Positions 33,101-57,100 of a DNA stretch of 64,000 nucleotides are shown here, in pieces. How positions within the stretch are numbered: the stretch's first letter is position 1; every line of letters begins with the position of its first letter. Origin of the DNA: Antedon mediterranea (lineage: Eukaryota > Animalia > Echinodermata); contig NC_092671.1 of the NCBI RefSeq assembly GCF_964355755.1, forward strand, positions 24,688,070 through 24,752,069. The letters are read 5' to 3'. Below the pieces are notes generated by a model. It did no database searches. It had not been told where the DNA came from and saw only the letters and a program-made list of their open reading frames with translations. Position numbers and translations under genes: made by a program.

Positions 33101-36100
33101 GTTTTGAACTTTTCTATCTGGATAATGCTAACCATTATATTGTGTGTGTGAATACAGCCTTTATTGTTTTCAGTTTGCCCTCTGTTTTGAACTTTTCTAT
33201 CTGGATAATGCTAACCATTATATTGTGTGTGTGAATACAGCCTTTATTGTTTTCAGTTTGCCCTCTGTTTTGGACTTTTTTATCTGGATAATGCTAACCA
33301 TTATATTGTGTGTGCGAATACAGCCTTTATTGTTTTCAGTTTGCCCTCTGTTTTGGACTTTTCTATCTGGCTAATGCTAACCATTATATTGTGTGTGTGA
33401 ATACAGTATTTATTGTTTTCAGTTTGCCCTCTGTTTTGGATTTTTCTATCTGGATAATGCTAACCATTAGATTGTGTGTGTGAAAACACCCTTTATTGTT
33501 TTCAGTTTGCCATCTGTTTTTGGACTTTTCTATCTGGATAATGCTAATCATTAGATTGTGTGTGTGAATACAGCCTTTATTGTTTTCAGTTTGCCATCTG
33601 TTTTGAACTTTTCTATCTGGCTAATGCTAACCATGTGTGTAAATACAGCCTATATTGTTTCCGGGTTGTCATCTGTTCTAATTTAAGTTATTGTTTTGGT
33701 TGTCAATCCTTTAATAATTTTATTAAATTTGTTTGATTTGCAGGTTGATTCAGATTGTGCTTATGCTTACATATTGCTAGGCCATGAGTATGTATCAACA
33801 GAAGAACTTGATAAAGCCATGTGCTGTTTCAGAAGTGCCATCAGGATTGACTCAAGGCATTACATAGCCTGGTAAATTGATTTTAAGTGGTTAATTAAGA
33901 GCATACCAAAGCCATCAAATCAGCACAGTTTCTGGTGGTAGAACAAGTCTTCTTGGATAAGGATTAAAACTTGTCCAGTGTCTTGTCACTTTAAAGAACC
34001 CAGGACCTTCTTTTAGAAGAGTAGGAGCTATTTTCCCAACTTTATGGTATGAGTTTAGAAAAAATGAAAATATAAAATAGAAGTAAAGAAATATATATGT
34101 TTTAAATGTTTTGTTTTAAACTTGATCTTAATAGGTATGGTACAGGTATGATCTACTATAAGCAAGAAAAGTTTAGCCTTGCAGAGGTACACTTTAAAAA
34201 AGCTCTGATGATAAATCCACAGAGCCCTGTACTCATGTGTCACATAGGAGTAGTTCTACATGCACTTCAACGGCCTGCAGAAGCACTTGAAATGCTCAAG
34301 AAAGCTCTTGTTCTAGACCCTAACAATGCACTTTGCAAGTTTCGCAAAGCATCTATACTTTTTGCTATGGAAAGGTATAAGGTAAGAAATATGTTGATTA
34401 GTAATTTGTTTAAGGTCTTTTTGTACTAATCTGTACCTTCTGTATGTTATGGTGTACCACACTGTAAAGATTCTTAAATCTCTGGAGATGTTGTATTACA
34501 ATTGAGAATGTTGCTAGGCTTACGTAAGCACTGTTAGTGCTCTAACATGTTTGCCACAAGGATAATACCCTCTTTTTATGAGCATGTCCGCAAGTGCGTC
34601 TATGGTTTTAGAATAAAAGTTTTGAATAGTGAAAATGATCTTGTTAGGTGTACTACGAACGATCTGTTGTGATTTTCAAATCTCTTCACTAAACGGGGAA
34701 AAATCCTATTTAGTGTGATTTTCTGTTTTGTTTGTTGGAATTTTTATTCTAAAATAAAGTGATCAATCAATCAATAACATAAGGCATGATTAGGAAATCT
34801 ATTTAATTATTTCCAAAACTTCTTTTTCACTGCTCACCACTGCCCATAAAGCTTGCCCCAAATGTTCTGTTCAAGCCAGCAGGCAAGATATCACTCAGAT
34901 AAGACACGTGTACCAGTTAGGAAACATGTATTTTATTTTTTCTGTAATTTATCTTAATATATCAACAAAATCAAATTGCATACATTATTTTTTGCATCTA
35001 ATTTTCAGACATATTTCTCAGACAAATTTTTACTGATGAGAAAAATTCTAATTTTAATTGATATACAGTATTCTATAATACAGAAAGTATACAAAATGGC
35101 AATCCTGCCACCTGTTTGTTTGCTGTGACTGCATACATTTCATGAAACAAAGCCTATTCTTAATTACTGTGTTCTAAATAAATATGTTTGCAGGCTGCTC
35201 TTGATGAATTAGAAGAACTGAAGCAGATTATTCCAAAAGAATCATTGGTGTATTTTCTTATGGGAAAAGTAAGTATAAAGCCTAAATTAACCTAAAAGGA
35301 ACTACTTTTTCAATTGAAGAGTAGTTGTAGAGTGGTATTTATTTGACTAGCACTGTACCTGACTGTTATTCTTTTCTTTTAAGGTAGAAATAACCTACAA
35401 AATACCCTAAATATTAATTAACCAAATGCTCTAAAATAACCTCAAACTATGAAAGACAAATTAACATGTATGGGTTGTGAATCAGAAACCATTCAGCCAA
35501 AGAACAGAAAACTTTCAACATTATTTTCCAAATGTAATGTCATAAAAGAATACAATTTACTTTAAAGTAAAAATGGTGAGAAAAATGAGATCAATACACA
35601 TAGGACATCCTTGTAACATGATGATGATTACGGTTGATATTTAATTTATGTTCATGCTTAGGTAATTAATGTTATAATCTGTTAGTGTATCACACTATTT
35701 TAAACATGGACCTAACTTCTACTGAAAATTGTAATTGCTATAGGTTTACAAGAAACTTGGTCAAACCCACCTGGCATTGATGAACTTCTCCTGGGCAACT
35801 GATCTTGACCCAAAAGGTGCTAATAACCAGATCAAAGAAGCTATTGACAAACGATATCTACCTGATGAAGATGACTCAGTAGCTGCCATGTATGCAATAG
35901 AGCATGTCACACCTGGTAAGGATCAGTGCTGTAACAGCTATGAGCGGTCATTGGCTAAAGGCTGCTGCTACACTCCAGGACAATAACGATCAATGATAAA
36001 TAGTTAAACATACATTTTTCTGACAGAAAAGAAAAGAAATTAGTAAAGTTTTAATTTTAGAATAATCATTTATGCTGTCTTAAAATAATGCTTAAAAAAA

Positions 36101-36571
36101 TACAATTAAATGACATCATGATCAATATATAAGAACATAAAGAGTAAAGAATAATTATTCTTATTCTTTACTCTATGATACGAACAATAAAATTGTATAC
36201 TGGGTGTATACAAATAATATTTTCATTAATGACGCATCAATTTATTATTCTATAGTTCTAGATTAAACCTTTTTGATTCATTTTTTTTTCTGTAGGAAAA
36301 ATGCATATTTATTAACTTATTGTCAATCATTTTCGTCCTAGTGTGGGTCTTAAATCCACAGCTTTAAGGGCCCATGAGCTAGCCCAATGTAACTACCCAT
36401 TGCCCCCTGCATTAAACCACTGGTAATAAATACTGTTTTGGCTTTAATTTCTTAGGTGTAGTAAGTGAAGAGGAAAGCAACCAACTAGTTGATGATAGTA
36501 TTTCACTTGATAGCCTAGCAGAAGGCGAGCATATGCAGCTACAAGCTAATGAAAGTGATGAAAGTTTATGA
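15118..36571 (+). CDS. CDC27: cell division cycle protein 27 (APC3, TPR subunit of APC/C); 19 coding exons, 2502 nt, 833 aa
   Basis: All 19 exons join in frame with GT-AG introns; MVVQEPVQATIWHCLTYYAYQDAIFLAERL..., RRSSRLFS, KEN, GNCFSLQKEHDIAIKFFQRAIQ and MNFSWATDLDPKGANNQIKEAIDKRYLPD match known CDC27. Confidence 0.97.
16024..16099 (+). CDS. CDC27: CDC27 exon 2
   Basis: ATIWHCLTYYAYQDAIFLAERLHAE; AG/GT bounded. Confidence 0.95.
16412..16559 (+). CDS. CDC27: CDC27 exon 3
   Basis: EETLFLLATCYFRSGKPNRAY...CKYLLARCC. Confidence 0.95.
16974..17099 (+). CDS. CDC27: CDC27 exon 4
   Basis: YAEGETILAGSVLTKQHTLEEISAEYGELSCFVLSLLGKIL. Confidence 0.93.
17686..17783 (+). CDS. CDC27: CDC27 exon 5
   Basis: KCERQPKASECYKHSLKLNPCLWSSFEALCHL. 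Confidence 0.95.
17887..18213 (+). mobile_element. 5S rRNA-derived SINE (SINE3-type) or 5S pseudogene with attached body, in CDC27 intron 5
   Basis: 17887-17997 follows the metazoan 5S sequence (TACGGCC.TACCACGTT...CTCGTC.GATCACC.AAGTTAAGC...CTTGGATGGGAGACC..CTGGGAATACCGGGTGCT) with about 10-15 differences, no strong T-run terminator, and a ~210-bp GC-richer body. Confidence 0.75.
18303..18463 (+). CDS. CDC27: CDC27 exon 6
   Basis: GHKPDADKIFQ...IDTPP; donor GTTAGT, phase fits exon 7. Confidence 0.85.
18541..18838. mobile_element. degenerate MITE
   Basis: Inverted sub-terminal AAGTTGTAACCAGGTTTG / CAAACCTGGTTACAACTT. Confidence 0.5.
18915..19138 (+). CDS. CDC27: CDC27 exon 7
   Basis: ...RGLLGGGQQQMYSPLTP; disordered loop. 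Confidence 0.88.
19321..19881. mobile_element. Kolobok-type non-autonomous DNA transposon
   Basis: TTAA flanks; TIR AGATGCTAGACCT / AGGTCTAGTGTCT starting with a purine pair. Confidence 0.6.
20347..20458 (+). CDS. CDC27: CDC27 exon 8
   Basis: SFGFLPLENTP...DIKAPKK; donor GTGAGT. Confidence 0.9.
22157..22254 (+). CDS. CDC27: CDC27 exon 9
   Basis: VISRKPHIKPPVFSMSGN...TPSPQT; phases 0 and 2 fit neighbours. Confidence 0.85.
22451..23348. mobile_element. non-autonomous element with ~160-bp terminal hairpin, Crypton-like
   Basis: Near-perfect inverted repeat 22454-22615 centred on GAGGCAAAGCCGAG; TTATATAACA(T/C)C at 22617 inverted at 23338-23348; family name is from recalled architecture only. 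Confidence 0.55.
23744..24324. mobile_element. MITE carrying a 21-bp minisatellite
   Basis: Perfect 15-bp TIR AGAAGAATGAGCAAT (23744-23758) / ATTGCTCATTCTTCT (24310-24324). Confidence 0.7.
23954..24275. repeat. 21-bp minisatellite (CCCCATGTATACGGCACCGTA)n, about 15 copies
   Basis: Directly visible; one variant unit; explains four overlapping repeat ORFs. Confidence 0.97.
24504..24585 (+). CDS. CDC27: CDC27 exon 10
   Basis: GLRRSSRLFSNANTNSVK. Confidence 0.9.
24966..25173 (+). CDS. CDC27: CDC27 exon 11
   Basis: EN (completes KEN)...KTKSKPTK...FQKASA. Confidence 0.9.
25442..25593. mobile_element. PIF/Harbinger-type MITE family, copy 1
   Basis: TIR AGC.CTGTCTACACTATCAA; other copies at 52812-52970, about 59120-59290, and a fragment near 5060-5080. 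Confidence 0.75.
25885..26376. mobile_element. MITE with TGT...ACA ends and 4-bp TSD (Ginger-like)
   Basis: Perfect 31-bp TIR TGTTATGCGCGATTTGAACGATTTGCGCAAT; TSD ACTG (25881-25884, 26377-26380); repeated TTGCGCAA palindromes. Confidence 0.75.
27073..27245 (+). CDS. CDC27: CDC27 exon 12
   Basis: EGLMSLLRDMGKAY...HYNTGWVLSQVGKARFELAEY. Confidence 0.95.
27785..27937 (+). CDS. CDC27: CDC27 exon 13
   Basis: FKEVRRIEPHRTEGMALYSTALWHLQKEVALS. Confidence 0.95.
28562..29606. mobile_element. non-autonomous piggyBac-type element, about 1045 bp
   Basis: TTAA TSD on both sides; 14-bp TIR CACTTTGACTGCCA; duplicated sub-terminal motif AAAAACGAAGATCTTCGTGTTTGGCAGTCAA. Confidence 0.85.
31451..31660. repeat. 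cluster of CGTATACG palindromes, probable DNA transposon end
   Basis: About ten CGTATACG or CGTATATG motifs ending in TTTTTTGCAAAGGGTA; the other end was not found. Confidence 0.5.
31825..31905 (+). CDS. CDC27: CDC27 exon 14
   Basis: TWCTSGNCFSLQKEHDIAIKFFQRAIQ. Confidence 0.95.
32251..33661. repeat. 83-bp tandem array, about 17 copies, filling CDC27 intron 14
   Basis: Unit ATTGTTTTCAGTTTGCCCTCTGTTTTGAACTTTTCTATCTGGATAATGCTAACCATTAGATTGTGTGTGTGAATACAGCCTAT; starts at 32251, 32334, 32417... Confidence 0.97.
33744..33871 (+). CDS. CDC27: CDC27 exon 15
   Basis: VDSDCAYAYILLGHEYVSTEELDKAMCCFRSAIRIDSRHYIAW. Confidence 0.95.
33947..34040 (+). mobile_element. degenerate Deu/Nin-domain SINE fragment
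   Basis: TCTTCTTGGATAAGGATTAAAAC...TTAAAGAACCCAGG...GAAGAGTAGG resembles the recalled conserved DeuSINE core. Confidence 0.45.
34135..34381 (+). CDS. CDC27: CDC27 exon 16
   Basis: YGTGMIYYKQEKFSLAEVHFKKAL...CKFRKASILFAMERYK. Confidence 0.95.
35194..35268 (+). CDS. CDC27: CDC27 exon 17
   Basis: AALDELEELKQIIPKESLVYFLMGK. Confidence 0.95.
35744..35915 (+). CDS. CDC27: CDC27 exon 18
   Basis: VYKKLGQTHLALMNFSWATDLDPKGANNQIKEAIDKRYLPD. Confidence 0.95.
36456..36571 (+). CDS. CDC27: CDC27 exon 19 (terminal)
   Basis: Acidic tail ...MQLQANESDESL stop; AATAAA at 36673 and 37312. Confidence 0.9.
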
Positions 36572-37921: not shown

Positions 37922-40900
37922 ATCCTCAGTGGATATTGTAAAAGTGATATGTCCTATCTTTTGAACTGAAATTTCTGGATCCAATATTCTTATATTTTAA
38001 TTAAGACCTAAAGGATATATAAATTAATATATATATATAAATCCAAAGGCAAATTACTGAAAAAATGACAATGCTGTGGGTATCAGTGGCTGGATTAGTA
38101 TATATATATACTAATGCTCTTGACCTAATATTCAATACACACTATAGTAATTAAACTGTAGGAATTAAAGTTAATGAATGAATTTAACTGTTAACCTTGC
38201 TAGATTATTGCATTCTTTCTAATTTGTGCCAGAATGCATAGTGTAGCAGTATAAAATTAGACACCCCCAATGTTCTACAAACACTCCCTTACTAATTTAT
38301 TGTTTGTAAAAATGATATTAGGACATAGGTTGTATAGCAATTTATCAAAGTAATGTTTTATTAAACTGAATATATAATTGCAAAAAACAAAATTAGTTTT
38401 AAACTGTTTATACAATATTGTGTGTGTGTCATAATATACTTTGATATCTTTTCTATAATTATATTTTATGTTAATTTGATATTAGTGATAAGAAATATTA
38501 TGTTAATATGTTATAATATTGTTATTAATTTACTATCTAGCTTTTTGTAGGTTTTTTTTTTTAAATTTAAAAAATACAATCACTTGTTCTCTAGAAGATC
38601 TAAAAAAATGTTATGATGTTACTTTAAAATGTAATCGAGCATTTTGAAAATGAAAATTGGTGATTTTACCATGTACATACATTTCTGATGAAATTATAAG
38701 GCAGATTTAGACACCATAAAAAATACACAATAAAAACATACACCTTTTAAAACATGAAAAATTGACATCAACACATTAAACACAAATGCTTTGGCGGGAA
38801 TATGTAATGAAGGTACTATACACCTACTTAACTGCGCAACATGTACCAATAAAATAAAGAGCAGTATTTGTATCAAGACATTGCAATACATTGAAACAGT
38901 TGGAGTAGATTGTATATAACATTATGTTGTTTATTCAAAAGACTGTTTAAATGGACATTTGATGTGTGTATGTTGTACGAAAAAGTAGCAAAATAAAAAT
39001 ATCTGTGTTAAAATCATCATTTATTTGTAGCAGTATCTTTTTATATGTTGTAACCAACTAGTATAGCTATTTTCAACACTATATTCACATACAGTAGATT
39101 GGTTCAGCTTCCATTTCTTCCCAACTCGAAACGATGTCACACAACGTTGTTGACTGATCGCGTGTTCACCATCTATAACTGTTCTTCTCCGCGTATCAAG
39201 TTTGACCACTGCCTTTTTTTAATAGCCTAGCTTCCTGGCCTAGCAATTGTCAATGATTCACAATGAATAACTTTAATAAAATAATGAATGTTTTGTATTC
39301 ATTGACAATTTTTCAAATCATGAAATACTCTCACCAGCACTCATAAACAATCATTATTTGTATACTAATTTACACATACTACAGTATGGTATGGACCATA
39401 CCAATTACAAACTAGAATTTAATTCGTCACTTTGACGAATTATAGGTGATCATTTTTATCATTAATAAAATTAACATTTTTTAAACATGCACGTACGTTA
39501 ACATACAATACGTAAAAAGTTGATGTACGCCATCCTATGACATGATGCATATACACTTATAGCGCTGAGTTGTACCTATTATCTGTCATACACAATATGT
39601 ACAGTATATACTGTATATCTATATACAGTGTAGCATAGGTGAAATTACGGGACCCACATCAAGTTCTAATTTTTGGTATGATGGAATTATCAAAATAAAC
39701 TCAAAGATGACAATTTCGAAAGATAATGAATTGAGCAAATAAATATAAGAATTGGAAGAGACTCTGGCACGTAGAAGCGCTGTGCGCGCTCTTTGAAATT
39801 TGTATAACTTTGACGAAAAAGATGAAAAAACTACTTTTTAACTTCATCTGGCCATATGTTAACGTCACAACATCCGATAGGCTTGGTTTTTATATGAATT
39901 CATATCTACATTTCATCAGCTTTCATAATAAATTATAATCATCAAGGTAACCTTCAATTCTGAAGAGCTGTTAGATATTCAAATTTACGGCGAAGGTGAA
40001 ATTACACGATCTACGTTATGCAAGATTTTACGCGTGATGACGTCATCAAATTGAAAAAAATGACAACTTATAAGAACGATAAATAATTAAGCAAGCACAC
40101 ACTGAAATTTGTGCAAAAATCGAGCTCAAATAGCGGAGATGCGGTCTATTGAATGTGATAACCTACACAAAACGGAAAAAAATCCTAATTTTTAAATTCA
40201 AGTGGCCATTTGATGACGTAATACCATTTTGTACGTCTAATGTGTATATACATTTATATCTACAACTCAATGGCTTCCCGAATAAGTTAAAAAACTTAGG
40301 GGTCATCGTGCATTCTGAAGAGTTATTTTCATTTTAAAAATGCCTTATTTTTCACCATTTTCAGAACTTTTGTGAAATTAATTTGCGCATTTTGACATTT
40401 TGAACCTGCTCGTATAGCGTTATTTTAAGTCGGAACTGACTCAAATTTGGTTAATGTACTAAGGATGGTGAGTAGAATGCGATTTCTACAAAAAAATCGT
40501 ATTTTTACGCTTTTTAAGTATCGCGCGCGCAAAAACGTGTTTTTGCGCAGTAATTTTTTGAAACACGCAAATGGCCCAATTCATGCTCTAAATTGATCAA
40601 AACTTAATTTTGAGCCTTTTAAATTTTTAACGCGCGATTTCACGCGCATGTCTATACGTGCGCGTGCGTTTTTATTTGCTAATATTTTTTACCTTGACCT
40701 GAAATTTACGTGTAGTGAATTTCATAAATATGTGATAATGAATTATGGACATATGATTGATAATGTGATTTCACAAAATGGCGTATACGTGACGTCACGG
40801 ATGAGTAATCACGCTGAAAAGCTTATTATGGCTAAGTTAAAGTATTTGAAAGACATTGTGAAATTTTTGTGATCATTGTTATTCAACTTTTTGAGATAAT

Positions 40901-40931
40901 TGCTAAACAAAAAGTGTACAGAAAGAAGAAT

Positions 40932-42495
40932 AACTAGACATGTAACTCGTCACTTTGACGAGTTTGGTTATCCGCCGCGCAAGTGGTGCAACATTAACAT
41001 TAAGGGGATAGGTTGAGGACAAAAGGAAGTGTTCACGTTGGCATTATGACCTGAACTGAAGAATATGATATGTTGTTATTGCTGAATTTTATTATTTAAA
41101 TTCATATATAGTATACACAGTATAATCTGTATCCATATCACATACAGTGTAGAATAGGTGAAATTACGGGACCCGCTATTTGTTGCAATTTTTAACATGT
41201 TGACGGTTTTAAAATGAAACGCGAAGGTAGCAATTCCGAAAGGAAATTATCTCAGCAACAACGTATTAGCGTGTAGAAGAAATTTGAATACGTGAAATAT
41301 TGATGCGCGCTCTTTTAAATGTAATGAATTTTGACGCAAAAGATGAAAATACGACCTTTTTTATTTAACTGGCCATATGATGACGTCAAAACATCCCATT
41401 GGCAAAATTTTTACATAATTTCGTATCTACAATCCAATAGCTTCCAGAAAAAATTTTAATCGTGATTATCACATTTTATTCTTACCAGCTATAACAGATT
41501 AAAATTTACTGTAAAGATGAAATTGATGCCACACGTGATTTAAATTTTTAGGCATGATGACGTCAAAAAAATTAAAATATTTTTAACTCATGCGAAAGAT
41601 ACTTGATTGACCTAGACAATATCAAAATCGGGGTGAAAATAGAAAACGGATAAGTGGAGATGCGCTCTATTCAATGTGATGAGCTATGACGAAAGATACA
41701 AAAATCCTAAATTTTATATTCGCGTGGCCATACGATGACGTCACAATGTCCGGTTAGCCATATTAATACCTGATCCGATATCTACAACTCATCTACTTCC
41801 AGAATATGCCATCCACAAAAAGTTGACCGTCTAGTTTAGAAATTACGACTGTTTAAAAAAAGGCATATTTTAAACGAATTTTTTAACCTTTTCATAAAAA
41901 ACGCGCGCAAATTGTCCAATTCGACGTGCTCGTATGACGTATCTTTAAGTCGAAATTGTTTAAAATTTGGTAAAATTACTAGAAAAGGCTGGAAAAATAT
42001 AAATCACGTGAAAAAAGTACGTTTTCAATACTACGTGCGCACCGCACACGTAAAAATGTGCGCACGCGTGGGAATTTTTGACATGCTTAAAACGACATGA
42101 AACGCGTAGAAAGTTGATTAGAAATTAATTTTGCGCATTTTTAAATTTTAAATGCGCGTGCGCGCGTAACTTTGTGTAGAACACGCAATTTTTTTCAACA
42201 GAAAGTTAGCGCATGATATAAATTAAACTTTTGCAAAGTTTCAAGTTGAAATGTTTTTTGGTTGTCGAGCTATGTTAAATACGACAAAATCGTTAAATCG
42301 CGCGTAAGTCACGTTGCGCAATTGTAAAAGTCATGAAAAGCTTCGCTTGACGACGTTACGTAAATGTCAATATGTTAAGATAGTTACCGAAATGTTATGT
42401 TTGCGAGTTTTAGAGAAAAGCGTTACACAAAAATCATACAGGTTGATTTCGTACAATCACAAGAGGTTATCCTGCAACTTCGTTGCGGATAACCA
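40932..42495 (-). mobile_element. HINE B1, complete, nested in A1
   Basis: 3' hairpin AACTCGTCA-CTT-TGACGAGTT, subTIR GGTTATCCGC (40966) matching GCGGATAACC (42485-42494). Confidence 0.85.
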
Positions 42496-45400
42496 ACTAG
42501 AATTTAATTCGTCACTTTGACGAATTATAGGTGATCATTTTTATCATTTAAATGAAATTAACATTTTTTAAACAAGCACGTACGTTAACATGCGTTCGTA
42601 AAAAGTTGATGTACACCATCCTATGAAATGATGCTTATACACTTATAGAACTGAGTTGTACCTATTATGTGTCATATACAATATGTACAGTATATTGTAT
42701 ATCTATATACAGTGTAGCATAGGTGAAATTACGGGACCCACATCGTGTTCTAAATTTTTGGTATGATGGAATTATCAAAATGAACTCGAAGATGACAATT
42801 TCGAAAGATAATGAATTGAGCAAATAAATATAAGGATTGGAAGAGAATTTGACACGTAGAAGCGCAATGCGCGCTCTTTGAAATTTGTATACATTTGACG
42901 AAAGAGAGAAAAAAACTACTTTTTAACTTCAACTGACCATTTCATAATGTCACAACATCCGATAGGCCTAATTTTTATATGAATTCATATCTACATTTCA
43001 TCAGCTTTGATAATAAATTATAATCTTCAAGGTCACCTTTAATTCTGAAGAGCTGTAAGATATTCAAATGTATGGTGTAGCTGAAAATACACGACCTTGG
43101 TTTTTCAAGTTTTTACCCGTGATGACATCATCAAAATAAAAATGTTGACAACTCATGAGAAAGATAATTAATTGAGCAAGCACATACTAAAATTTTTGCG
43201 AAAATTGGGTTCAAATAACGGAGATGCGCTCTATTGAATGTGATAACCCACACAAAAAGATAAAAATTACTAATTTTTAAATTCAAGTGGCCTTTTGATG
43301 ACGTCATATCATTTTGTACGTCTAATGTGTATATACATTTATCTCTACAACTCATTTACTTCCATATTAAGTTAAAAAAATTTGGGGTCATCTTCCATTC
43401 TGAAGAGTTATATTCATTTTAAAAAGGCCCTACTTTTTACCATTTTTAGCACTTTGTACAATTAATGTGCGCATTTTGTCATTTTTAACGTGCTCGTATA
43501 GCGTTATTTTAAGTCTGAATGGACTCAAAGTCGTAGAATGTACTAGGGATTATGAGTAGAATGTGATGTATACATCAAATTTTATTTTTTACGCTTTTTA
43601 AAAATCGCGTGCGCAGAAACATGTTTTTGCGCAGTAATTTTTTAAAACACGCAAATGGCCTATTTCATGCTCTAAATTGATCAAAACTTAATTTTGAGCT
43701 TTTTAAAATTTTTACGCGCGATTTCACGTGCATGACCTTGAGACGCACGAGTTTTTATTTGCTAATATTTTTTACCTTGACCTGAAATTTACGTGTAGTG
43801 AATTTCATAAATATGTGATAATCAGTTATGGACATATGATTGATAATGTGATTTCACAAAATCGCGTATACGTGACGTCACGGTAGAGTGATCACGCTGA
43901 AAAGCTTATTATGGCTAAGTTAAAGTATTTGAAAGACATTGTGAAATTGTTGTGATCATTGTTATTCAACTTTTTGAGATAATTGCTAAACAAAAAGTGT
44001 ACAGAAAGAAGAATAATAACACTAGACATGTAACTCGTCACTTTGACGAGTTAGTTATCCGCACGACAAACGCCACGTGCACGTCATACGTTAGAATATT
44101 GCACACAGAAAAAAATTATGGCATTATGACCTGATCTGAAGAATATGATATGTTGTTAGTGCTGAATTCTGTCAATTTTGTGTCATATAGTATATACATG
44201 AAAACAGTATAATCTGTATACATGTTACATACAGTGTAGAAGAGGTGAAATTACGGGACCTGCCATTTATTCAAATTTGTAACATGGCGACGGTATCAAG
44301 ATGAAACACTAAGATAGCAATTTCGGAAGGAAATTATCTCAGCAACAACATATTAACGTGTAGAAGAAATTTGAATACGTTTAATATTGATGCGCGCTCT
44401 TTTGAATATAATGAACTATGACGAAAAATATGAAAATACGACTTTTTTTATTCAACTGGCCATATGATGACGTCACAAGATCCGATTGGGAAAATGTTTA
44501 CATAAATTCGTATCTACAATCCAATAGCTTCCAGAAAACGTTTTAATCATGATTATCACGTTTTATTCTGACGAGCTATAACAGATTGAAATTTACTGTA
44601 AGGACGAAAATAAGTGACCCACGTTATTTACATTTTTAGACATGATGACGTCATAAATATTAAAATATTTTTAACTCATACGAAAGATAGTTGATTGACC
44701 TAGATAATATAAAAATCGGGGTAAAAATGGAAAACAGATAATTGGAGATGCGCTCTATTAAATGTCATGCGCTATGATGAAAGATACAAAAATCCTATAT
44801 TTTATATTCGCGTGGGCATACGGTGACGTCACAATGTCCGGTTAGCCATATTAATGCATGATTCAAAATCTACAACTCATTAACTTCCAGAATATGTAAT
44901 TAAAAAAAAGTTCTCCATGTAGTTTAGAATCTATGACTGTTTAAAAATAGGCATAATTTTGACGAATTTTTGAACTTTTTCACCAAATACGCGTGCAAAT
45001 TATCTAATTCGACGTGCTCGTATGACGTAATTTTAAGTCGAAATTGTTTAAAATTTGGTAACATTACTAGAAAAGGCTGAAAAAACATAAATCACGCGAA
45101 AAAAATATGTTTTTAACGCTACGTGTGCACCGCGTGCGTAAAATTGTTCGCGCGCGTGGGAATTTTTGACATGCTCAAAATGACATGAAACGCATAGAAA
45201 GTTGATTAGAAGTTTATATTTCGCACGTTAAAATTTTAAACGCGCGTGCGCGCGTAACTTTTTGTGAAACATGCTATTTTTAATCCATAGAAAGTTTGCG
45301 CTTGATATGACTTAAATTTTCACAAAGTTTCAAAACAAAATTATGTTTGGTTTTTAGTCTATGATCAATCATTGAAATTCATAAAATCGCACGTAAGTCA

Positions 45401-45675
45401 CGTTGCGCAACTCTGACGTCATTCAAAAATAGGAGGTGCACAAGTTCACATAAATGTCGATATGTTGACAAAGTTACGATATGTTCTGTCTACACGTTTT
45501 AGAGAAACGCGACGCACAAAAATGACAGAAAGAAAGAAGTATAATACAGAAAAAAAATTTGATGAAACAGGACGATTACAAGGAGTTATCCGCTACTAAG
45601 CGGATAACTAAATAATAATAAAGATTTTGTACAATAACAATAGGTGATCATTTTATTCTAAATGATCACCTAATA
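42495..45675 (-). mobile_element. HINE A2, nested in A1, hosts B2
   Basis: A-type 3' end at 42495; A-type 5' end at 45641-45672. Confidence 0.85.
44021..45610 (-). mobile_element. HINE B2, complete, nested in A2
   Basis: subTIR TAGTTATCCGC (44052) matching GCGGATAACTA (45600-45610). Confidence 0.85.
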
Positions 45676-47201
45676 ATAACAACTAGAATTTAATTCGTCA
45701 CTTTGACGAATTATAGGTGATCATTGTTATCATTTTAATGAAATTAACATTTTTTAAACATGCACGTACGTTAACATACGATCGTAAAAAGTTGATGTAC
45801 GCCATCCTATGACATGATGCATACACTTATATAGCTGAATTGTGCCTATTATATGCCATATACAATATGTACAGTATATACTGTATATCTATATACAGTG
45901 TAGCATAGGTGAAATTACGGGACACACATCATGTTCTAATTTTTTGGTATGATGCAATTATCAAAATAAACTCAAAGATGACAATTTCGAAAGATAATGA
46001 ATTGAGCAAATAAATATAAGAATTGGAAGAGAATCTGGCACGTAGAAGCGCTGTGCGCGCTCTTTGAAAATTGTATAACTTTGACGAAAAAGATGAAAAA
46101 ACTACTTCTTAACTTCATCTGGCCATATGTTAACGTCACAACATCCGATAGGCTTTGTTTTTATATGAATTCATATCTACATTTCATCAGCTTTCATAAT
46201 AAATTATAATCATCAAGGTAACCTTCAATTCTGAAGAGCTGTAAGATATTCAAATTTACGGCGAAGGTGAAATTACACGACCTACGTTATTCAAGTTTTT
46301 ACGCGTGACGACGTCATCAAAATGAAAACACTGACAATTTATGAGAAAGGTAAATAAGTAAGCAAGCACACACTGAAATTTGTGCGAAAATTGGGCTCAA
46401 ATAGCAGAGATGCGCTCTATTGAATGTGATAACCTACACAAAACGGAAAAAAATCCTAATTTTTAAATTCAAGTGGCCATTTGATGACGTAATACCATTT
46501 TGTACGTCTAATGTTTATATACATTTATATCTACAACTTATTGGCTTCCATATTAAGTTAAAAAAATTGGGGGTCACCTGCCATTCTGAAGAGTTATATT
46601 CATTTTAAAAAGGCCTTAATTTTTACCATTTTTTGCACTTTTGTGCAATTAATGTGCGCATTTTGTCATGTTTAACGTGCTCGTACAGCGTTATTTTAAG
46701 TCAGAATGGACTCAAAATCGGAGAATGTACTAAGGATTGTGAGTAGAATGTGATTTTTACATCAAATTTTATTTTTTACGCTTTTTACGAATTGCGTGCG
46801 CATAAACGTTTTTTTGCGCAGTAATTTTTTGAAACACGCAAATGGCCTAATTCATGCTCTAAATTGATCAAAACTTAATTTTGAGCTTTTTAAAATCTTT
46901 ACGCGCGATTTTACGCGCATGACCTTGAGACGCGCCAGTTTTTATTTGCTAATATTTTTTACCTTGACCTGAAATTTACGTGTAGTGAATTTCATAAATA
47001 TGTGACAATCAATTATGGACATATAATTGATAATGTGATTTCACAAAATTGCGTATACGTGACGTCAAGGTTGAGTGATCACGCTGAAAAGCTTATTATG
47101 GCTAAGTTAAAGTATTTGTAAGACATTGTGAAATTTTTATGATCATTGTTATTCAACTTTTTGAGATATTTGACGAACAAAAAGTGTACAGAAAGAAGAA
47201 T

Positions 47202-49897
47202 AACTAGATTTGAACTCGTCACTTCGGACGAGTTAGGTTATCCGCAGCGCAAAAGCCACGTGCACGTCATACGTTAGAATATTGCGCGCAGAAAAACGAT
47301 TATGCCATTGAAAAAATGTTAGTGCGCTCTCTATTTTGTGTCACGTCAAAGTATATACGGTATACACTATATTCTGTATACGTACAACATACAGTGCAGA
47401 ATAGGTGAAAATAAGGGACCCAAGTTATTGACGCTTTTGGACATGATGACGTCATCACAATTTAAAAAATTGTAGATTATGCGAAAGATAATTGATTGGC
47501 CTAGACAATATAACAAAATGGGGGAAATGGAATACGGATAAGTGGAGATGCGCTCTATTAAATGTGATGAACTATGAGAAAGAGACAAAAATCCTATATT
47601 TTATATTCGAGTGGCCATACGTTGACGTCACAATGTCCGGTTAGCCATATCGATGCATGATATGATATCTACCACTCATCTACTTCCAGAATCTGAAATT
47701 TTCAAAATTTTCACCACGGACTTTAGAATCTATGACTTTTTTAAAAAAGGCATAATTTTCACACATTTTTGAACTTTTTCATCAAAAACGCGCGCAAATT
47801 GTTCAATTCTACGTGCTCGTATGACGTGATTTTAAGTCGAAATTGATTGAAAACTGGTAAATTTACTAGAAAAGGCTGGAAAAACAAAAATCAAGGAAAA
47901 AATAGATGTTTTTGCGCTACGTGCGCACGCGCGCGTAAGAAAAGTGCGCACGCGTGGGAATTTTTGAAATGCTCAAAATGTCATGAAACGCGTAGAAAGT
48001 TGATTAAAAATTGATTTTTCGCATTTTGAAATTTTAAACGCGCGTGCGCGCGTAATTTTCTGTAAAACATGCCATTTTCTCTCCATAGAAAGTTAGCGCA
48101 TGATATAAATTAAACTTTTGCCAAGTTCCAATTTAAATGGTTTAATAGTTTTCGATCTAAATTAAATACGCAAAATTCATAAAATCGCGCGTAACTTACG
48201 CTGCGCAACTCGGACGGTACCGAAAACCTTATTACGACATATTCAGATAGAGATCAATCTTCTGATAAAGTTACAAAATGTTATGTTGAGAAGATTTAGA
48301 GATACACGCGCAACAAAATTCTGGGAAAGAAAGAAGAACTAGACATGAAACTCGTCACTTTGACGAGTTAGTTATCCGCTCGACAAACGCCACGTGCACG
48401 TCATACGTTGGAATGTTGCACACAGAAAAAGATTTTGGCATTATGACCTGAACTGAAGAATATGATATGTTGTTAGTGCTAAATTCTGTCTATTTTGTGT
48501 CATATAGTATATACATTATAAAGTACACAGTATAATCTGTATACACCTAATTTAAATTTTTAGGCATGATGATGTCATAAAAATTAAATATTTTTAACAC
48601 ATGCAAAAGATAGTTGATTGACCTAGACAATTTTAAAATCTCGGAGAAAAAGAAATACAGATAAAGGTGATGCGCTCCATTTAATGTGAGGAGCAATAAC
48701 GAAAGAGACAAAAATCATATATTTTACATTCGTGTGGCCATACGATGACGTCACAATGTCCGGTTAACCATATTGATTAATGATCCGATATCTACAACTC
48801 ATCACCTTCCAGAATATGTAAGTAAAAAAAAGTGTACCTCGTAGTTTAGAATCTATGATTGTTTAAAAAAAGGCATAATTTTGACGAATTTTTGAATTTT
48901 TTCATTAAAAACACGCACAAAGTGTACAATTCGACGTGCTCGTATGACGTAATTTTAAGTCTAAATTATTTTAAAAGTTGATAAAATTACTATAAAAGGC
49001 TGAAAAAACGCAAAAAAGATGTTTTTAGCGCTACGTGCGGACCACGCGCGTAAGATTGTTCGCGCGCGTGGAAATTTTTGACATGCTCAAAATGTTATGA
49101 TCAGCGTAGAAAGTTGATTAGAAATTAATTTTGCGCATTTTAAATTTTAAATGCGCGTGCGCGCGTAACTTCGTGTAAAACATGCCATTTTTTAGTGCAC
49201 AAAAAGTTAGCGCAAGATATAAATTAAACTTTTGCTAAGTTTCAATTTAAATTGTTATATGGTTTTCAATCTATGTTAAATACGCGAAATTCATCAAATC
49301 GCGCGTAAGTCACGTTGCGCATTTCTGAGGTCATTCACAATAGGAGGTGCACAACTTCACGTGAATGCCCATATGTTGACAAAGTTATGAAATGTTATAT
49401 TTACACGTTTTTGAGATACGCGAGACACAAAAATGGAGGAGAAATGCGCGTGTGCACGTAACTTCTTGTAAAACATGCCATTTTTAATCCATAGAAAGTT
49501 TGCCCTTGATATGACTTAAATTTTCACCAAGTGTCAATACAAAATGACTTTTATTTTTTATCCTATGATCAATCAATGAAATTCATAAAATCGCGCGTAA
49601 GTCACGTTGCGCAACTCTGACGTCATTCAAAAATAGGAGGTGCACAACTTCACGTAAATGTCCATATGATGACAAAGTTATGAAATGTTATGTGTACAAG
49701 TTTTTGAGATACGCGAGACACAAAAATGGAGGAGAAAGAAAGAAGAATAATATAAAGAAAAAAAAAAAAAAGATCCAGGACGATTACAAGGAGTTATCCG
49801 CTACTAAGCGGATAACTAATAAGAAAGAAAAAAAAAAAAAAAAAAAAAAAAGATCCTGACAATAACAAGGGGTTATCCGCCAAGTGCGGATAACCAA
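47202..49897 (-). mobile_element. HINE B3, shorter variant, nested in A3, hosts B4
   Basis: Hairpin AACTCGTC-ACTTCG-GACGAGTT; subTIR GGTTATCCGC (47236) matching GCGGATAACC (49886-49895). Confidence 0.85.
48337..49819 (-). mobile_element. HINE B4, innermost, with an internal deletion and a ~300-bp duplication
   Basis: subTIR TAGTTATCCGC (48369) matching GCGGATAACTA (49808-49818). Confidence 0.85.
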
Positions 49898-51362
49898 TAA
49901 TAATAAAGATTTTGTACAATAACAATAGGTGATCATTTTATTCTAAATGATCACCTAATAATAAAGATTTTGTACAATAACAATAGGTGATCATTTTATT
50001 CTAAATGATCACCTAATAACGCCTTTTGTGGCTTTCATGCTTCTGTATATAAATTTACGTAAGGCCAAAATTCGGTAAATCGCGCCTTACTTTTAGAATT
50101 TTTACTCGATGGTATATAAAGTTGGTTCGTACTTTCGGTACTGATTTTAACCACCTGATTTAACCCTATTTACTAATTAAATTAAGTTAGATAATTAGTT
50201 ATTGACGATTAAAACGAATTTAGGTTCAACGATTTGCCCCAAAGAGGGGTGTTTTCCGATCATGGTATACACTGTCTAATGGATGTCTATCTTGAAAAAT
50301 ACCCGCCACAAAAATGCGAGGAGGCTTCGCATTTTCCTATCTCCTCCTACGATAATTGTTTTTAATAGCTGAAAACCCGTTGAACAGCTAGAGTACAGCA
50401 TCATAATGTTGAAGACAGGCCGATTTTCTTTAAAAAATACTATTTTGATAGATTTAATATACGATTCTACAAATGTATTGATTTGCGATGAATGGAACAT
50501 CCCAATCTCTCAGTCTGCCAGAGTTTAACACAAGTAGGTAAATTTATGAGCCCTTGGTTTAACACATACGGTAGGTAAATATATGGGCCCTTTGAGAATA
50601 AACTTGCAATACTTCGACAATACTGTAAATACCTATTATTAACTATTGTTCGTCAACATTTGAATCGAACATTTCTAACTGTGAATGTTCGTACTGTTAG
50701 CCTAAATGTAATATAAAAATATATACAAATAAATTTTATTACTGAGATTGTGGATAGGCTCTACTGTTAGATATATAAACACATTATTATATACAAATAA
50801 ACTTTATACTGACAGTTCCTTCTCAACGTTTGTATTAATTAATAATTACCAAAAATATAAACGTCGTAGTGGTGTATATCGTGTACTTTAATATTTCAAT
50901 CGATTATGACAGTGACAGTTTTAACAAAGTATTAAATCGCAAATGTTTTACTGTATTTAGATGTAGGCCTATATTATTTATAGGCCTATAAAACATGAAA
51001 GAAATATTTCGTTACCGAGTGGATAAAGAATATATTTAAAAATTGTTCTTCTTTGTATACCTATCCGCTTTCCCATCCCTCAACCCTAATGTTACATACA
51101 AAACACAAATTGGGTTTCTTTAAATGAGTCCAAATCAAACATTTGGACTCATTTTGTGATAAGTTTCTCCTTCGGAAGTAATTCCCAGGGTGCTAATTTT
51201 AGTTGACTACATAAATCATCGTGTCTATTTATTCGTTTCTGTAAACGACAATGTATTATAGTCCTGCGGTACGTACACTTGAAATCGCCAGTTTTGTTAC
51301 GCTGAAATTACTGTGTATTCGAGAACCATCTGTGGGTACGACCTAGATGGTACGCGAGCTTT

Positions 51363-52165
51363 AGTTTTATCATTATCTTGTTGACACCTGTACTAGAGTT
51401 TATCATTATCTTGTTGATACCTGTACTAGAGTTTATCATTATCTTGTTGATACCTGTACTAGAGTTTATCATTATCTTGTTGACACCTGTACTAGAGTTT
51501 TATCATTATCTTGTTGACACCTGTACTAGAGTTTATCATTATCTTGTTGATACCTGTACTAGAGTTTATCATTATCTTGTTGACACCTGTACTAGAGTTT
51601 ATCATTATCTTGTTGATACCTGTACTAGAGTTTTATCATTATCTTGTTGATACCTGTACTAGAGTTTATCATTATCTTGTTGATACCTGTACTAGAGTTT
51701 TATCATTATCTTGTTGACACCTGTACTAGAGTTTATCATTATCTTGTTGATACCTGTACTGGAGTTTATCATTATCTTGTTGATACCTGTACTAGAGTTT
51801 ATCATTATCTTGTTGATACCTGTACTAGAGTTTATCATTATCTTGTTGACACCTGTACTAGAGTTTTATCATTATCTTGTTGACACCTGTACTAGAGTTT
51901 ATCATTATCTTGTTGATACCTGTACTGGAGTTTATCATTATCTTGTTGACACCTGTACTAGAGTTTATCATTATCTTGTTGATACCTGTACTAGAGTTTA
52001 TCATTATCTTGTTGATACCTGTACTGGAGTTTATCATTATCTTGTTGATACCTGTACTGGAGTTTATCATTATCTTGTTGATACCTGTACTAGAGTTTAT
52101 CATTATCTTGTTGATACCTGTACTAGAGTTTATCATTATCTTGTTGATACCTGTACTAGAGTTTT
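51363..52165. repeat. 33/34-bp minisatellite, about 24 copies
   Basis: Unit TTTATCATTATCTTGTTGA(T/C)ACCTGTACT(A/G)GAG with occasional extra T. Confidence 0.97.
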
Positions 52166-52811
52166 TATTACAAAACATTGAAACAATATATACTTTATAA
52201 TGTTCTTTACTCCATAAAATCTGTTTATTCTATCTTTGCATTCTGCAAGAAGAAATAAATAAAACAACAATTATTATTGCATTTTTGACAAAACATGACA
52301 ATGCCAAGAATAAAATAATATAATACAAAGATATACACATAATATTATGATGTATAATTAAATTTTAAACTTCCTATAATAAACACTGGACATATTTGTG
52401 TAATTTTTAAGTTAAAATATATTTTATTTGTTTTTCTTTTATGTATATACCATATTTATTTTTTGGTAGGCTTTGTAGGGGGCCTTTATTCGAGAGAAGC
52501 TTTTATTGTTTTGTGTGTAGTATAGTAACATGTATAATCAAATAAGTTACCCCTATATATGAAAACTATATACACAATTAATATCAAGAAGTGATAAAAT
52601 ACAGAAAAAATTATATCAAAATACTGTATACATTTTATATTTACAGTATTATGTGACAATAAAGTTTATTCAATGTCTAGGGATGTCTATAAATCCAAAA
52701 GGCAAAATTACTGAAAAAGAACCAATTAACAACTACTGTACTTCTGAATGTTCAGTTTGAAACCACTATACAGGATGCCAAACACCATGCATTTATGTAA
52801 CTATTCTATAA

Positions 52812-52970
52812 AGCCCTGTCTACACTATCAACCTAGTTTGACAAAAATAGTGTGATGTGCCCAAATATGGTAGTGATATGCCCAAATATGGTAATGATAT
52901 GACACCATCATGTCCATATATGGGCACGTCACATTTTTTGGTCACCAAGTTTGATAATGTAGGCAGCGCT
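52812..52970. mobile_element. PIF/Harbinger-type MITE family, copy 2
   Basis: TAA TSD (52809-52811, 52971-52973); TIR shared with 25442-25593. Confidence 0.8.
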
Positions 52971-53250
52971 TAAAACAGCAATGCTTACACATTCAAATCC
53001 TATGAAAGAACATATAGAATCGTATTTTGAAATTATGTGACATATGACACATGGATAACAATTTGGCTATACTATCTGCTGCTATACACTTTGGTTTATA
53101 CTATATACACTGTTTTCTATGTATTTTGAAAGATAGTGTTTGAGTGTAACAACAATAATACTGTAATACAAGTGACAATGCCGTGGGCATTACTGAAAGT
53201 GGCTGTATTCACCATTCACACTTATGCTAAGTTAACAATCTCATATCTAA

Positions 53251-53908: not shown

Positions 53909-54107
53909 GGATGTGGGTGTATCAATTTGTCAATCATGAGATGAAATTATATTAGTACAGTAGTATGACCTTTGCTTCTTCATAGAGTGTATGAAGTGTG
54001 AGGTCTATAATGGATGTGGGTGTTTCAATTTGTCAATCATGACATGACTGTTAATTTTGTGAGATATTCCTGAATGTACTCGGCTTCTTCGTGGAGTGTA
54101 AGATCCA
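53780..54107. repeat. diverged triplication of the NUB1 stop-codon region with (AT)n spacer at 53878-53906
   Basis: TGGATGTGGGTGT.TCAATTTGTCAATCA at 53780, 53908 and 54011. Confidence 0.85.
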
Positions 54108-54188
54108 GGTAATCTTCTTCATGCTCTGGTATATCAGGTACTAGGTCTTTGATTGCCTCATTTTGCTCTTTTGTTAAACTGTCAGCAC
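54037..54188 (-). CDS. NUB1: NUB1 terminal exon
   Basis: [29 protein letters not shown]...stop. Confidence 0.92.
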
Positions 54189-57100
54189 CTGAATCAATAG
54201 AAAGAAAAATGAATAGTAATACAAAATAGGGTACAGAAATATATAGTTTTTCCATATTCTAATCTACATTAACTTTAAGTTAAATTATAACTGCATTCGT
54301 TAAGTTAAATGCCTTTTTTTCATTATCATACTGTCTTTTACATGTTATTTACCTTACCTTACTTAATATGTTGCCTGGACCCCTCATTTTAAAGCTTAAA
54401 CTTCCAGTGGGAATTGTTGATTGATTGTTTTTCAACAAATAGTTAATATATATTCAATATAGCTTAATTGATTCAAATATAAATGGTGCAGATGTTTAAA
54501 AAAAAATGAAACACATTCCTAAAACCAGACTTCACCAAAATATAGTCGACAATTGACCGAGAATAGTCAATAATATATTTTACATTTTACACAATGTAAC
54601 ACAATTAGTATATTTGATTCTAAGGCTTGTGGTGCTATTTCACTGGGCCAGTATGGAAGTAAATGGGTGTAGGCCACGCAAATATATCATATCAGTCGAC
54701 ATAGTGGACACAAAAATGTCCCTATGTTAATTGTACACAAACACAATTTGACCTACAGTTTATCCAGTCTAATACAAATATACGGTATATACATCAATGA
54801 AATGGAACCAATTAATTGTATGACATTACAATATAGCCCAACTTACCAGTACTTGATCTTTTAGAAGTTGAAGCCCTGTGACAGCTTGATGGCAGTAGAC
54901 CACCATTCTGTACAAGTACTTCAATAGCTTTCTCAACATTGCCATGATAACTGATTAGTGCTTGTCTGGCAACTTCCTTCAAGAAGCCCAATTCACAGAA
55001 CTATAAAGATATAGTTTTAACAAATAAGATTTAATAAATACACTTTATATACTGTATGTGTGTGATAGAGAGGTTGTAGTGTTTGTGAAGAGAGGTAGTG
55101 GTTGTGGAATATACCAGATATAGAGGTGGCATACACTCCTGTTTTGGCTGAGTGATTCCCTTATTGTAGAATTCTCGGTTTTCACATTTTTTTTCCAGAT
55201 TACAAAGGTAACTTAATTTTTATTAAATGTGTCGTTTTTTTGTAATAACAGCTCAAAATACAAGCAAATTTACAATATTTAAGCCAGTGTACTACCATGG
55301 TCATAATTTATTGATTTTTCCCCCTCATATACAGTAGCCACTACGTTACCGCTTGTGACACAGTGATCCTCACCTTCACTCATGGTCTCAATATATTGTG
55401 GGCGGTGTTGAATATAGACGTCTTTTAGAAATCATTGTGTTATTGTGGAATTTGCCATAGAGAGGCTGCAGTTACCGTAAAATACCATATAGATAGTTTG
55501 CAGTTTTAATTCAGCTACAGAATGACTTATAGGCCTACTGTAGCTGTTCTTTTTAAATTCCCAGTACTTTGAAATTCATAAATACAGTACCTGTGACAAC
55601 ATTTGATCTGTGATTTCTCCTTGCCACTCGCCTGGTTCTGGCATGTTAAGTAGTTGAGGATTCTCTTGTAATGTCTGTAGAGCAAGGTTGATATCACTGT
55701 TACATTGTTTAAGTGCTGAGGCTGCTGCATTTGTAGGGAAGCCCATGGATAGGAGTGTGTTATACACATCAATATTCACCCTGAAAATGAAATAAAAATA
55801 TTCAACATCAACAAAACATTTTAATCTTATTGTTTCTTTTTTATTGTGTGCTATATATACATTTTTGCATAGTTTAAAATTTCTTTTAGTAATATTATTT
55901 ACTTATAATGTCATTAAAATTCCTCTGGCCTAAAAAAATAATTTAATTCAGTAATATTTATCATTTTTACAGGAAAAAACCCTTCCATTCCGATTTCCTG
56001 AACAAACCAGGAGACATACAGTATTGTAAATGTTTAACGCAATGGCAAAACCTGTTCTGGAGACATGCCTTAGTATTAAGGTGACTCTTTTTCCCTCATT
56101 AAGGGTTCTAATGTATTCAATATACTGTATGTTTTATGCAGTGTCAATGTTTTTTTTTTGTAGATTAAATACAAATAAAGTATGTATATAGCAAGCACTA
56201 AAAATAGAATTAAGTAAATTGTGTACAGTTGAAGTTTGAGTATGGTAGGATAAAATATTATTAGGTTTGTTTATTATATGTTTGGGAGGGAGAGAGGATG
56301 TGCAGCCTCTGGGTCCACCACTGGTAAGTCATTGAACAGCAAGTTGCTTTACCATTGTCCATTAGCAGCTTTCCCAATCTGCCTTTGCAATTCCCTTTTC
56401 TTATCTTCTTCTCTTTCTTTTGCAGCAATCTCTTTTCTTCGTTCCTTTCTGTCAGTGATTTTGTTAACAGCCAAGGACAAGCTTCCATTTGCTGCTCGCA
56501 ATCCAAGTCTAGCCTCTGAGGTAGTAAAACCCATGCCAATTAGGTGGCTTAGTTTCTCATCATCTACTTCCAATGTCTTCAAAATTCCTCTGGCCTAAAA
56601 AATAATTTCATTCAATTTGAGTCAACATGCACTACATTCACATCCACATGGATGATAGCAAAACATTTCAATTGAAGTGGACATTCATGTTGACATGCCA
56701 GTGATGTAGATGCTATTCTACTGGGCCGGTAGATGCTATTCTACTGGGCCGGTAGATGCTATTCTACTGGGCCGGTATATGCTATTCTACTGGGCCGGTA
56801 TATGCTATTCTACTGGGCCGGTATGGCCCAGGTGTACATAAGTACCGTATATATAATTAACAATATACACTTCAATCTTTATGTAAGGGAGAAGCAAGTC
56901 ATCAAATAAGACATTAAGTTAACTTTTTGACACTTGACACAAAGTTTTGAAAAAAGTAATCCTAAAAAGCATTAATACAAAATACAAATCATTATATCTA
57001 TGTAGGCTTAAGGCCCATTTACACTAGGGTGATAACGATCGACGATAACACGATAAATATGCATTTTTCATACCTAAAACAAAAGAATTTTAAAAAGTTT

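What the first reader, a model, noticed from the sequence alone, without database searches (positions are those of the whole stretch)
39410..50019. Matryoshka of seven Helentron-type elements in balanced brackets: A1[B1,A2[B2],A3[B3[B4]]]
Seen: seven 3' ends (ACTAG + hairpin + subTIR at 39410, 40932, 42495, 44021, 45681, 47202, 48337) and seven 5' ends (double inverted repeat ending about 42494, 45610, 45672, 49818, 49895, 49957, 50015). Closing order is last-in-first-out, and the subTIR variants agree with it: GGTTATCCGC opens and closes B1 and B3, TAGTTATCCGC opens and closes B2 and B4, TAGGTGATCATTT the A copies. All share one orientation and nesting reaches four levels. Established: subTIR, short IR, microsatellite and 3' hairpin is the HINE/DINE-1 architecture of non-autonomous Helentrons. 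Inference: this is not a satellite or simple tandem duplication but a self-targeting stack grown by serial insertion, possibly moving as a composite unit.
Basis: partly seen in the sequence, partly recalled or inferred. Interest (0 to 1): 0.85.

Follow-up and report, generated by a model that had tools for sequence, protein, structure and literature searches.

The report
Rolling-circle transposons nested inside each other
Seven small non-coding transposons of the Helentron/Helitron2 type sit inside one another four levels deep between two genes of an animal genome, most likely because each copy carries a short repeat near its start that matches the family's own preferred landing site; self-insertion was already proposed for fungal relatives, so this is a clean example rather than a new kind of element.

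Summary
Seven 3' ends and seven 5' ends lie at the stated places (0 expected by chance). Removing inner copies rejoins every host to a 1.2-1.6 kb unit with no target duplication. All six nested insertions lie 58-78 nt from the host's 5' end, and 6 of 7 sites read TTAT^T. Sequencing runs show two high-copy families, solo copies, and the same self-junctions in other samples. Two related metagenome loci are also self-joined. So this is serial self-insertion of non-autonomous HLE2 (HINE-like) elements, not a satellite or a tandem duplication. Movement as one composite is not supported at this locus. Self-insertion near the 5' end and a TNAT^T target are in print for Fusarium FoHeli (PMC5148889). 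This scan noted the same kind of nest in four windows of other genomes (unchecked AI notes). No genome or long reads were available, so the nesting rate and the assembly were not tested directly. Verdict: real, a new variant of a known kind, interest 0.42.

The parts
39411..50015 (-). A1, outermost host; own sequence 39411-40932, 45673-45681 and 49958-50015 (1589 bp rejoined)
   Evidence: genomic site reads TTAT^T in element sense
40933..42495 (-). B1, complete 1563-bp copy in A1's microsatellite, 67 nt from A1's 5' end; lacks its own purine-rich tract and holds no insertion
   Evidence: a joined-ends contig about 98.5% alike in run X5; fuller tract in another copy in run X4
42496..45672 (-). 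A2 (1587 bp rejoined), inserted exactly at B1's 5' end, reusing the same TTAT^T site
44021..45610 (-). B2, complete 1590-bp copy in A2's microsatellite, 62 nt from A2's 5' end; the one site that is not TTAT^T (TATT^G)
45673..45681 (-). 9-bp piece of A1's (TTA)n tract stranded between A2 and A3
   Evidence: rejoined A1 tract matches the A2 and A3 tracts
45682..49957 (-). A3 (1582 bp rejoined), 58 nt from A1's 5' end; mosaic, A1-like in one half and A2-like in the other
   Evidence: 64 of 82 informative sites A1-like before column 871, 15 of 62 after; 0 of 2000 permutations
47203..49896 (-). B3 (1213 bp rejoined, shorter internal part), 61 nt from A3's 5' end
   Evidence: an uninvaded B3-like end in run X3 (loose end behind 48338)
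48338..49818 (-). B4, innermost copy (1481 bp), 78 nt from B3's 5' end; internal deletion and a 293-bp internal duplication (49149-49734, 84% alike)
49790..50015 (-). Stack of four 5' hairpin ends (B4, B3, A3, A1) closing in last-in-first-out order
   Evidence: predicted hairpins of -11.1 to -11.7 kcal/mol

Best explanation
This is a nest of seven non-autonomous Helitron2/Helentron-type (HLE2, HINE-like) transposons of two related high-copy families, most likely built by six separate insertions into the short T-rich repeat that each copy carries about 55-80 nt inside its own 5' end. Shown: boundaries, no target duplication, one orientation, insertion positions, and a TTAT^T site in 6 of 7 cases. 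Inferred: a RepHel transposase supplied in trans inserts a copy, probably from a joined-ends circle, at TNAT^T in a T-rich tract. The (TTA)n or (TCA)n tract is a run of such sites on one strand, which would fix the orientation. The element starts with T, so each insertion recreates TTAT^T at its own 5' end; the same spot can be hit again, giving head-to-tail pairs such as A2-B1. Each newcomer also brings a fresh tract, giving depth. The order would be A1 first, B1 before A2, and each host before its guest. The stack likely persists because it lies between the 3' ends of two convergent genes.
For: Balanced ends and clean rejoining. Positions 67, 67, 58, 62, 61 and 78 nt; chance 2e-10 over TT sites and 6e-7 over TNAT^T sites within the hosts. 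A ends identical (44 of 44 and 58 of 58 nt in all three pairs) while whole copies are 90-93% alike, which fits separate lineages under selection for ends, not decay after duplication. Element bins are roughly 700-6000 times the flank depth in run X7 (a rough measure). Solo forms exist (joints 47204>49957, 47200>45617). Self-junctions occur in 4 of 4 small runs of another study: A body to A head, B2 body to B2 head, B1 end to B1 end, B1 end to B2 end, B2 end to A head. A 1594-bp contig in run X5 is B1 with exactly joined ends. In metagenome contigs 2 of 2 related loci are self-joined: L001 nested 69 nt from the 5' end, L003 exact head-to-tail. FoHeli1/2 insert between TNAT and T and show repeated 5' termini of 31-85 nt (PMC5148889).
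Against: No genome was held, so nested versus solo copies were not counted; the joint tables were cut (15 of 565 rows, 15 of 25). No listed contig spans the stack. B2's site is not TNAT^T. B4 landed in a tract that is T-rich but not (TTA)n, and A1 landed in an ordinary site, so the microsatellite is neither the only target nor required. Junctions from short contigs cannot tell true nests from chimeras with two 5' ends. No autonomous partner was found in the window.
Confidence: 0.82

Rival explanations
1. Same serial insertion, but the position is set by protein tethering and not mainly by sequence: RepHel bound to or nicking the resident 5' hairpin exposes about 60-80 nt of single strand and captures an incoming copy there. 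This is a variant of the best explanation, not exclusive of it.
For: The distance from the 5' end is held (58-78 nt here, 69 nt in L001) across tracts of different sequence: (TTA)n, (TCA)n and a T/C-rich tract. B4 took the only TNAT^T site in that patch among 16 in B3. About 1400 TNAT^T sites lie in the rest of the window with no 3' end of these families.
Against: The solo A joints listed for runs X2, X3 and X4 carry (GAA)n, which has no TNAT^T site, and B1, which lacks its tract, is not invaded. Both point to sequence. Strand bias follows from the asymmetric motif alone.
Confidence: 0.3
2. The block grew by tandem duplication or composite transposition of an A[B] unit, with the last 58-bp end a local duplication.
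For: A1+B1 aligns to A2+B2 over 3055 bp at 86%. The last two A ends are a perfect 58-bp tandem. A3 is a mosaic of A1-like and A2-like halves. A2-B1 could have arrived together by 3'-end bypass.
Against: The B guests are 73-82% alike with different ends while the A hosts are 90-93% alike; the insertion point differs in A2; ends are identical while interiors are not; this reading needs one truncated A and one extra end, the nest needs neither.
Confidence: 0.1
3. The stack is an assembly artefact in a high-copy repeat.
For: No listed contig spans it; the families are very abundant.
Against: The seven copies differ by 7-27% from their relatives in the stack, every junction falls on an exact element end, and the same junction types occur in other samples and organisms.
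Confidence: 0.04

Closest known systems
FoHeli1/FoHeli2 (Helitron2) of Fusarium oxysporum, Chellapan et al. 2016, PMC5148889 (passages and section 10 read; supplements not seen)
   Same: Asymmetric inverted repeats, hairpins at both ends, insertion between TNAT and T, joined-ends form, repeated 5' termini of 31-85 nt explained by self-insertion; three copies in tandem or nested in Metarhizium.
   Different: There the passages show stacked 5' ends with one 3' end and one nested example; here all seven copies keep both ends, two families invade each other, and the landing spot is a microsatellite. Animal host, no coding sequence.
DINE-1 / HINE non-autonomous Helentrons, Thomas et al. 2014, PMC4067079 (passages and section 16 read)
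   Same: subTIR, nearby inverted repeat, microsatellite, 3' stem-loop, T-rich target, no target modification.
   Different: The passages read do not describe self-nesting. These copies end in CTAG(T). No partner with an endonuclease domain was identified.
Cg_HINE elements of the Pacific oyster, Vojvoda Zeljko et al. 2020, PMC7492417 (parts 1-3 of 7 read)
   Same: Same end modules, microsatellite in the left module, TT target, no duplication, high copy number.
   Different: Cg_HINE carry clear 140-180 bp tandem arrays; here the interior has only a degenerate period of about 355 bp. The parts read mention insertion into other repeats but not into their own microsatellite.
HLE2 group as defined with HELIANO, PMC11417382 (passages read)
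   Same: Short terminal inverted repeats of 11-18 nt, 3' stem-loop, T-T insertion.
   Different: Subgroup placement needs a RepHel sequence, which is absent.

Membership tests
HINE / non-autonomous HLE2 | Subterminal inverted repeats of about 11-15 bp, asymmetric | tested here: met
   A: 12-13 bp; B: 10-12 bp; at the 5' tip and about 30 nt inside the 3' end
HINE / non-autonomous HLE2 | Short inverted repeat pairing with the 5' subTIR | tested here: met
   Predicted DNA hairpins of -11.1 to -11.7 kcal/mol in 7 of 7
HINE / non-autonomous HLE2 | 3' stem-loop after the 3' subTIR | tested here: met
   8-10 bp stems, -6.9 to -8.8 kcal/mol in 7 of 7
HINE / non-autonomous HLE2 | Insertion between T and T with no target duplication | tested here: met
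   6 of 7 reconstructed sites are TTAT^T, one is T^G; hosts rejoin without extra bases. Sites are reconstructed, not seen as true empty alleles of this locus.
HINE / non-autonomous HLE2 | Microsatellite near the 5' end | tested here: met
   (TTA)n in A1-A3, T/C-rich tracts in B2-B4, absent in B1
HINE / non-autonomous HLE2 | No coding capacity; dispersed high copy number | tested here: met
   Longest stop-free frame 60-91 aa; depth far above the flank and other flanks seen
Helentron (strict sense) | Autonomous partner with RepHel plus endonuclease sharing the same ends | not testable with these tools
   No genome held; no such ORF in the window
Canonical Helitron (HLE1) | 5'-TC start, A^T insertion, no inverted repeats | tested here: not met
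   Starts are TA or TG, sites are T^T, subTIRs present; only the CTAG end is shared
Satellite DNA / tandem array | Head-to-tail homogeneous monomers | tested here: not met
   Nested order, two families with cores only 65-70% alike

The most novel reading that the evidence does not exclude
The 5' microsatellite that defines HINE/DINE-1 elements is an evolved landing pad: across animal HLE2 families it spells the family's own target next to the transposase-binding hairpin, steering new copies into old ones as a safe harbour, and the repeat's sequence (TTA or TCA versus TTC) decides which copies get invaded.
Probability: 0.3. Interest if true: 0.7.

Novelty: new variant of a known kind. Interest (0 to 1): 0.42.

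Why it matters
It gives a readable record of six HLE2 insertions with exact sites and partial order. It links a long-noted but unexplained feature, the 5' microsatellite, to target choice. If general, it explains stacked 5' ends, warns that repeat libraries will mis-set the boundaries of these families, and offers a route from dispersed elements to large repeat blocks. The idea of self-insertion is already in print for fungi, which caps the surprise.

Tried and rejected
Whole genome: none held, so no genome-wide count. Viral contigs: 0 matches to the 3'-end pattern. Metagenome scan: 3 loci; L002 was dropped as a chance match in GC-rich DNA with no BLAST hit to the elements. Rfam: 0 matches in 38000-52000. 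Earlier scan notes by place and by sequence: nothing. Recombination of a circle with a resident copy at the shared tract was rejected: it would give a permuted guest (5' end next to 3' end inside the host), which is not seen. A guide-sequence idea (A's hairpin loop resembles the target tract) was dropped: the copies that land there are B, whose loops differ. Read depth was not taken as a copy number. Runs X7 and X8 are probably the source sample and are not independent support. X5's joined-ends contig cannot tell a circle from a tandem pair. Missing cover or missing spanning contigs were not used as evidence.

Full report
Check of the observation. I read 38800-50700 and scanned for the end motifs. 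A degenerate 3'-end pattern matches exactly seven times in the window, all on one strand, against 0 in 100 shuffles. Seven 5' hairpin ends are present. The elements run on the minus strand. Defining each from ACTAG to the A after the outer subTIR, removal from the inside out rejoins A1, A2 and A3 to 1589, 1587 and 1582 bp and B3 to 1213 bp; B1, B2 and B4 are 1563, 1590 and 1481 bp. The rejoined A tracts are colinear and differ only in microsatellite length. The parse A1[B1, A2[B2], A3[B3[B4]]] is right. B ends pair by variant. A ends are identical, so their pairing rests on parsimony.

What the elements are. Each has a 5' subTIR folded back on a nearby inverted repeat, a T-rich tract about 55-80 nt in (deleted in B1), a non-coding interior with a degenerate period of about 355 bp in five of the seven copies, a 3' subTIR, a stem-loop and a CTAG(T) end. 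This is the HINE/DINE-1 plan as described in PMC4067079 (passages) and PMC7492417 (parts 1-3 of 7), and the HLE2 plan in PMC11417382 (passages). A and B share cores 65-70% alike. A copies are 90-93% alike overall but identical over the first 44 and last 58 nt; B copies are 73-84% alike. No RepHel frame lies in the window, so strict Helentron membership is untested.

Insertion sites. The six nested insertions lie 67, 67, 58, 62, 61 and 78 nt from the host's 5' end. Given a landing inside the host, the chance of this is about 2e-10 over TT sites, 3e-4 over TTATT sites and 6e-7 over TNAT^T sites; the 55-80 window was chosen after seeing the data, so these figures are optimistic. Six of seven reconstructed sites read TTAT^T, B2's reads TATT^G. 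FoHeli1/2 insert between TNAT and T according to the figure legend in PMC5148889 (the paper's text gives A for the last base). Because an element begins with T, insertion recreates the site. That fits A2 sitting exactly at B1's 5' end, and gives the order B1 before A2.

Other DNA. No genome is held. Ten coded runs hold part of the stretch; I laid eight. In X7 and X8, probably the source sample, the left flank is covered at depth 255-276 and 42-48 with 0-2 differences, and element bins in X7 at 1.9e5-1.7e6: high-copy families, though depth is only a rough guide. Joints include solo A forms and end-to-end stacks of B (15 of 565 rows shown). In four small runs of another study, each shows at least one self-junction among the rows listed, as well as solo forms and other flanks (15 of 25 joints, 12 of 28 between-letter rows, 24 of 135 loose ends shown; X6's is a single contig of depth 2.2). 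B1-type stacks there fall in a (TCA)n tract, again TNAT^T in some rows and a T run in others. Solo A joints listed for X2, X3 and X4 carry (GAA)n, though X7 also has solo A with (AAT)n. Run X5 holds a 1594-bp contig that is B1 with exactly joined ends, 23 other letters and one gap: a circle or a tandem pair. A metagenome scan gave 3 loci. Two are distant relatives from other DNA. L001 has a 3' end inserted in the same tract, 69 nt from the family's 5' end; L003 is an exact head-to-tail pair with a 1418-bp second copy. The third is a chance match.

Setting. The stack lies in a roughly 17-kb gap between convergent 3' ends: a plus-strand gene with TPR exons ending near 36570 and a minus-strand gene with UBA exons ending near 54040. 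The names CDC27 and NUB1 are my recall from the translations; Pfam gave only TPR/ANAPC3 and UBA.

Mechanism. Most likely (0.82) serial insertion by a RepHel acting in trans, drawn to TNAT^T sites in the T-rich tract that every copy carries, with the site recreated at each step. Whether sequence alone or binding at the resident hairpin sets the position is open (tethering about 0.3, not exclusive). Composite movement is not supported here: the guests differ far more than their hosts. A3's mosaic make-up and B4's internal duplication show later or earlier recombination; three sequences cannot say which copy is the recombinant.

What is known. PMC5148889 proposes self-insertion to explain repeated 5' termini of 31-85 nt and reports joined ends (its supplements, which list those termini, were not seen and may show fuller nests). 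PMC13085455 cites nested insertion as a possibility (passages). Four searches (listings only for papers not named above) turned up no paper describing systematic self-targeting of animal HINEs through their microsatellite; the library lacks most subscription papers. Four earlier notes of this scan report the same kind of nest in other genomes; they are unchecked and are not counted as support.

Verdict. Real, well explained in outline, a new variant of a known kind. Interest 0.42.

Noticed in passing
window:50016-51364: A different very high-copy repeat begins at or just after the stack's right edge (depth like the B family), with a hairpin near 51325-51357; A1 may have landed at the edge of another mobile element.
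   Followed up: partly
window:45682-47202: A3 is 95-99% like A1 over columns 200-600 and closer to A2 over 900-1300: gene conversion in the stack or a recombinant subfamily.
   Followed up: partly
run X5, record 9 (lies on window:40932-42494): Circular contig equal to B1 with joined ends, in a run filed under another organism code where little else of the stretch is laid.
   Followed up: partly
window:34106-36568 (+) and 54040-55902 (-): Exons of a TPR gene (likely CDC27, recalled) and a UBA gene (likely NUB1, recalled), convergent, flanking the stack.
   Followed up: partly
window:22448-22621, 25441-25594, 57014-57383: Palindromic MITE-like repeats; 25441-25597 has a relative at 52808-52971 and 57014-57383 one at 35983-36344.
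   Followed up: no
window:1806-2087, 23954-24275, 32251-33634, 51363-52165: Young minisatellites with periods 11, 21, 83 and 33 bp, 94-100% alike.
   Followed up: no
window:38000-38095: End of another high-copy repeat with an A-rich continuation in many contigs; a 98% inverted copy lies at 5858-5922.
   Followed up: no
window:2172-2477 (-): Cysteine-rich frame that looks like a Kazal-type exon (by eye, not scanned).
   Followed up: no
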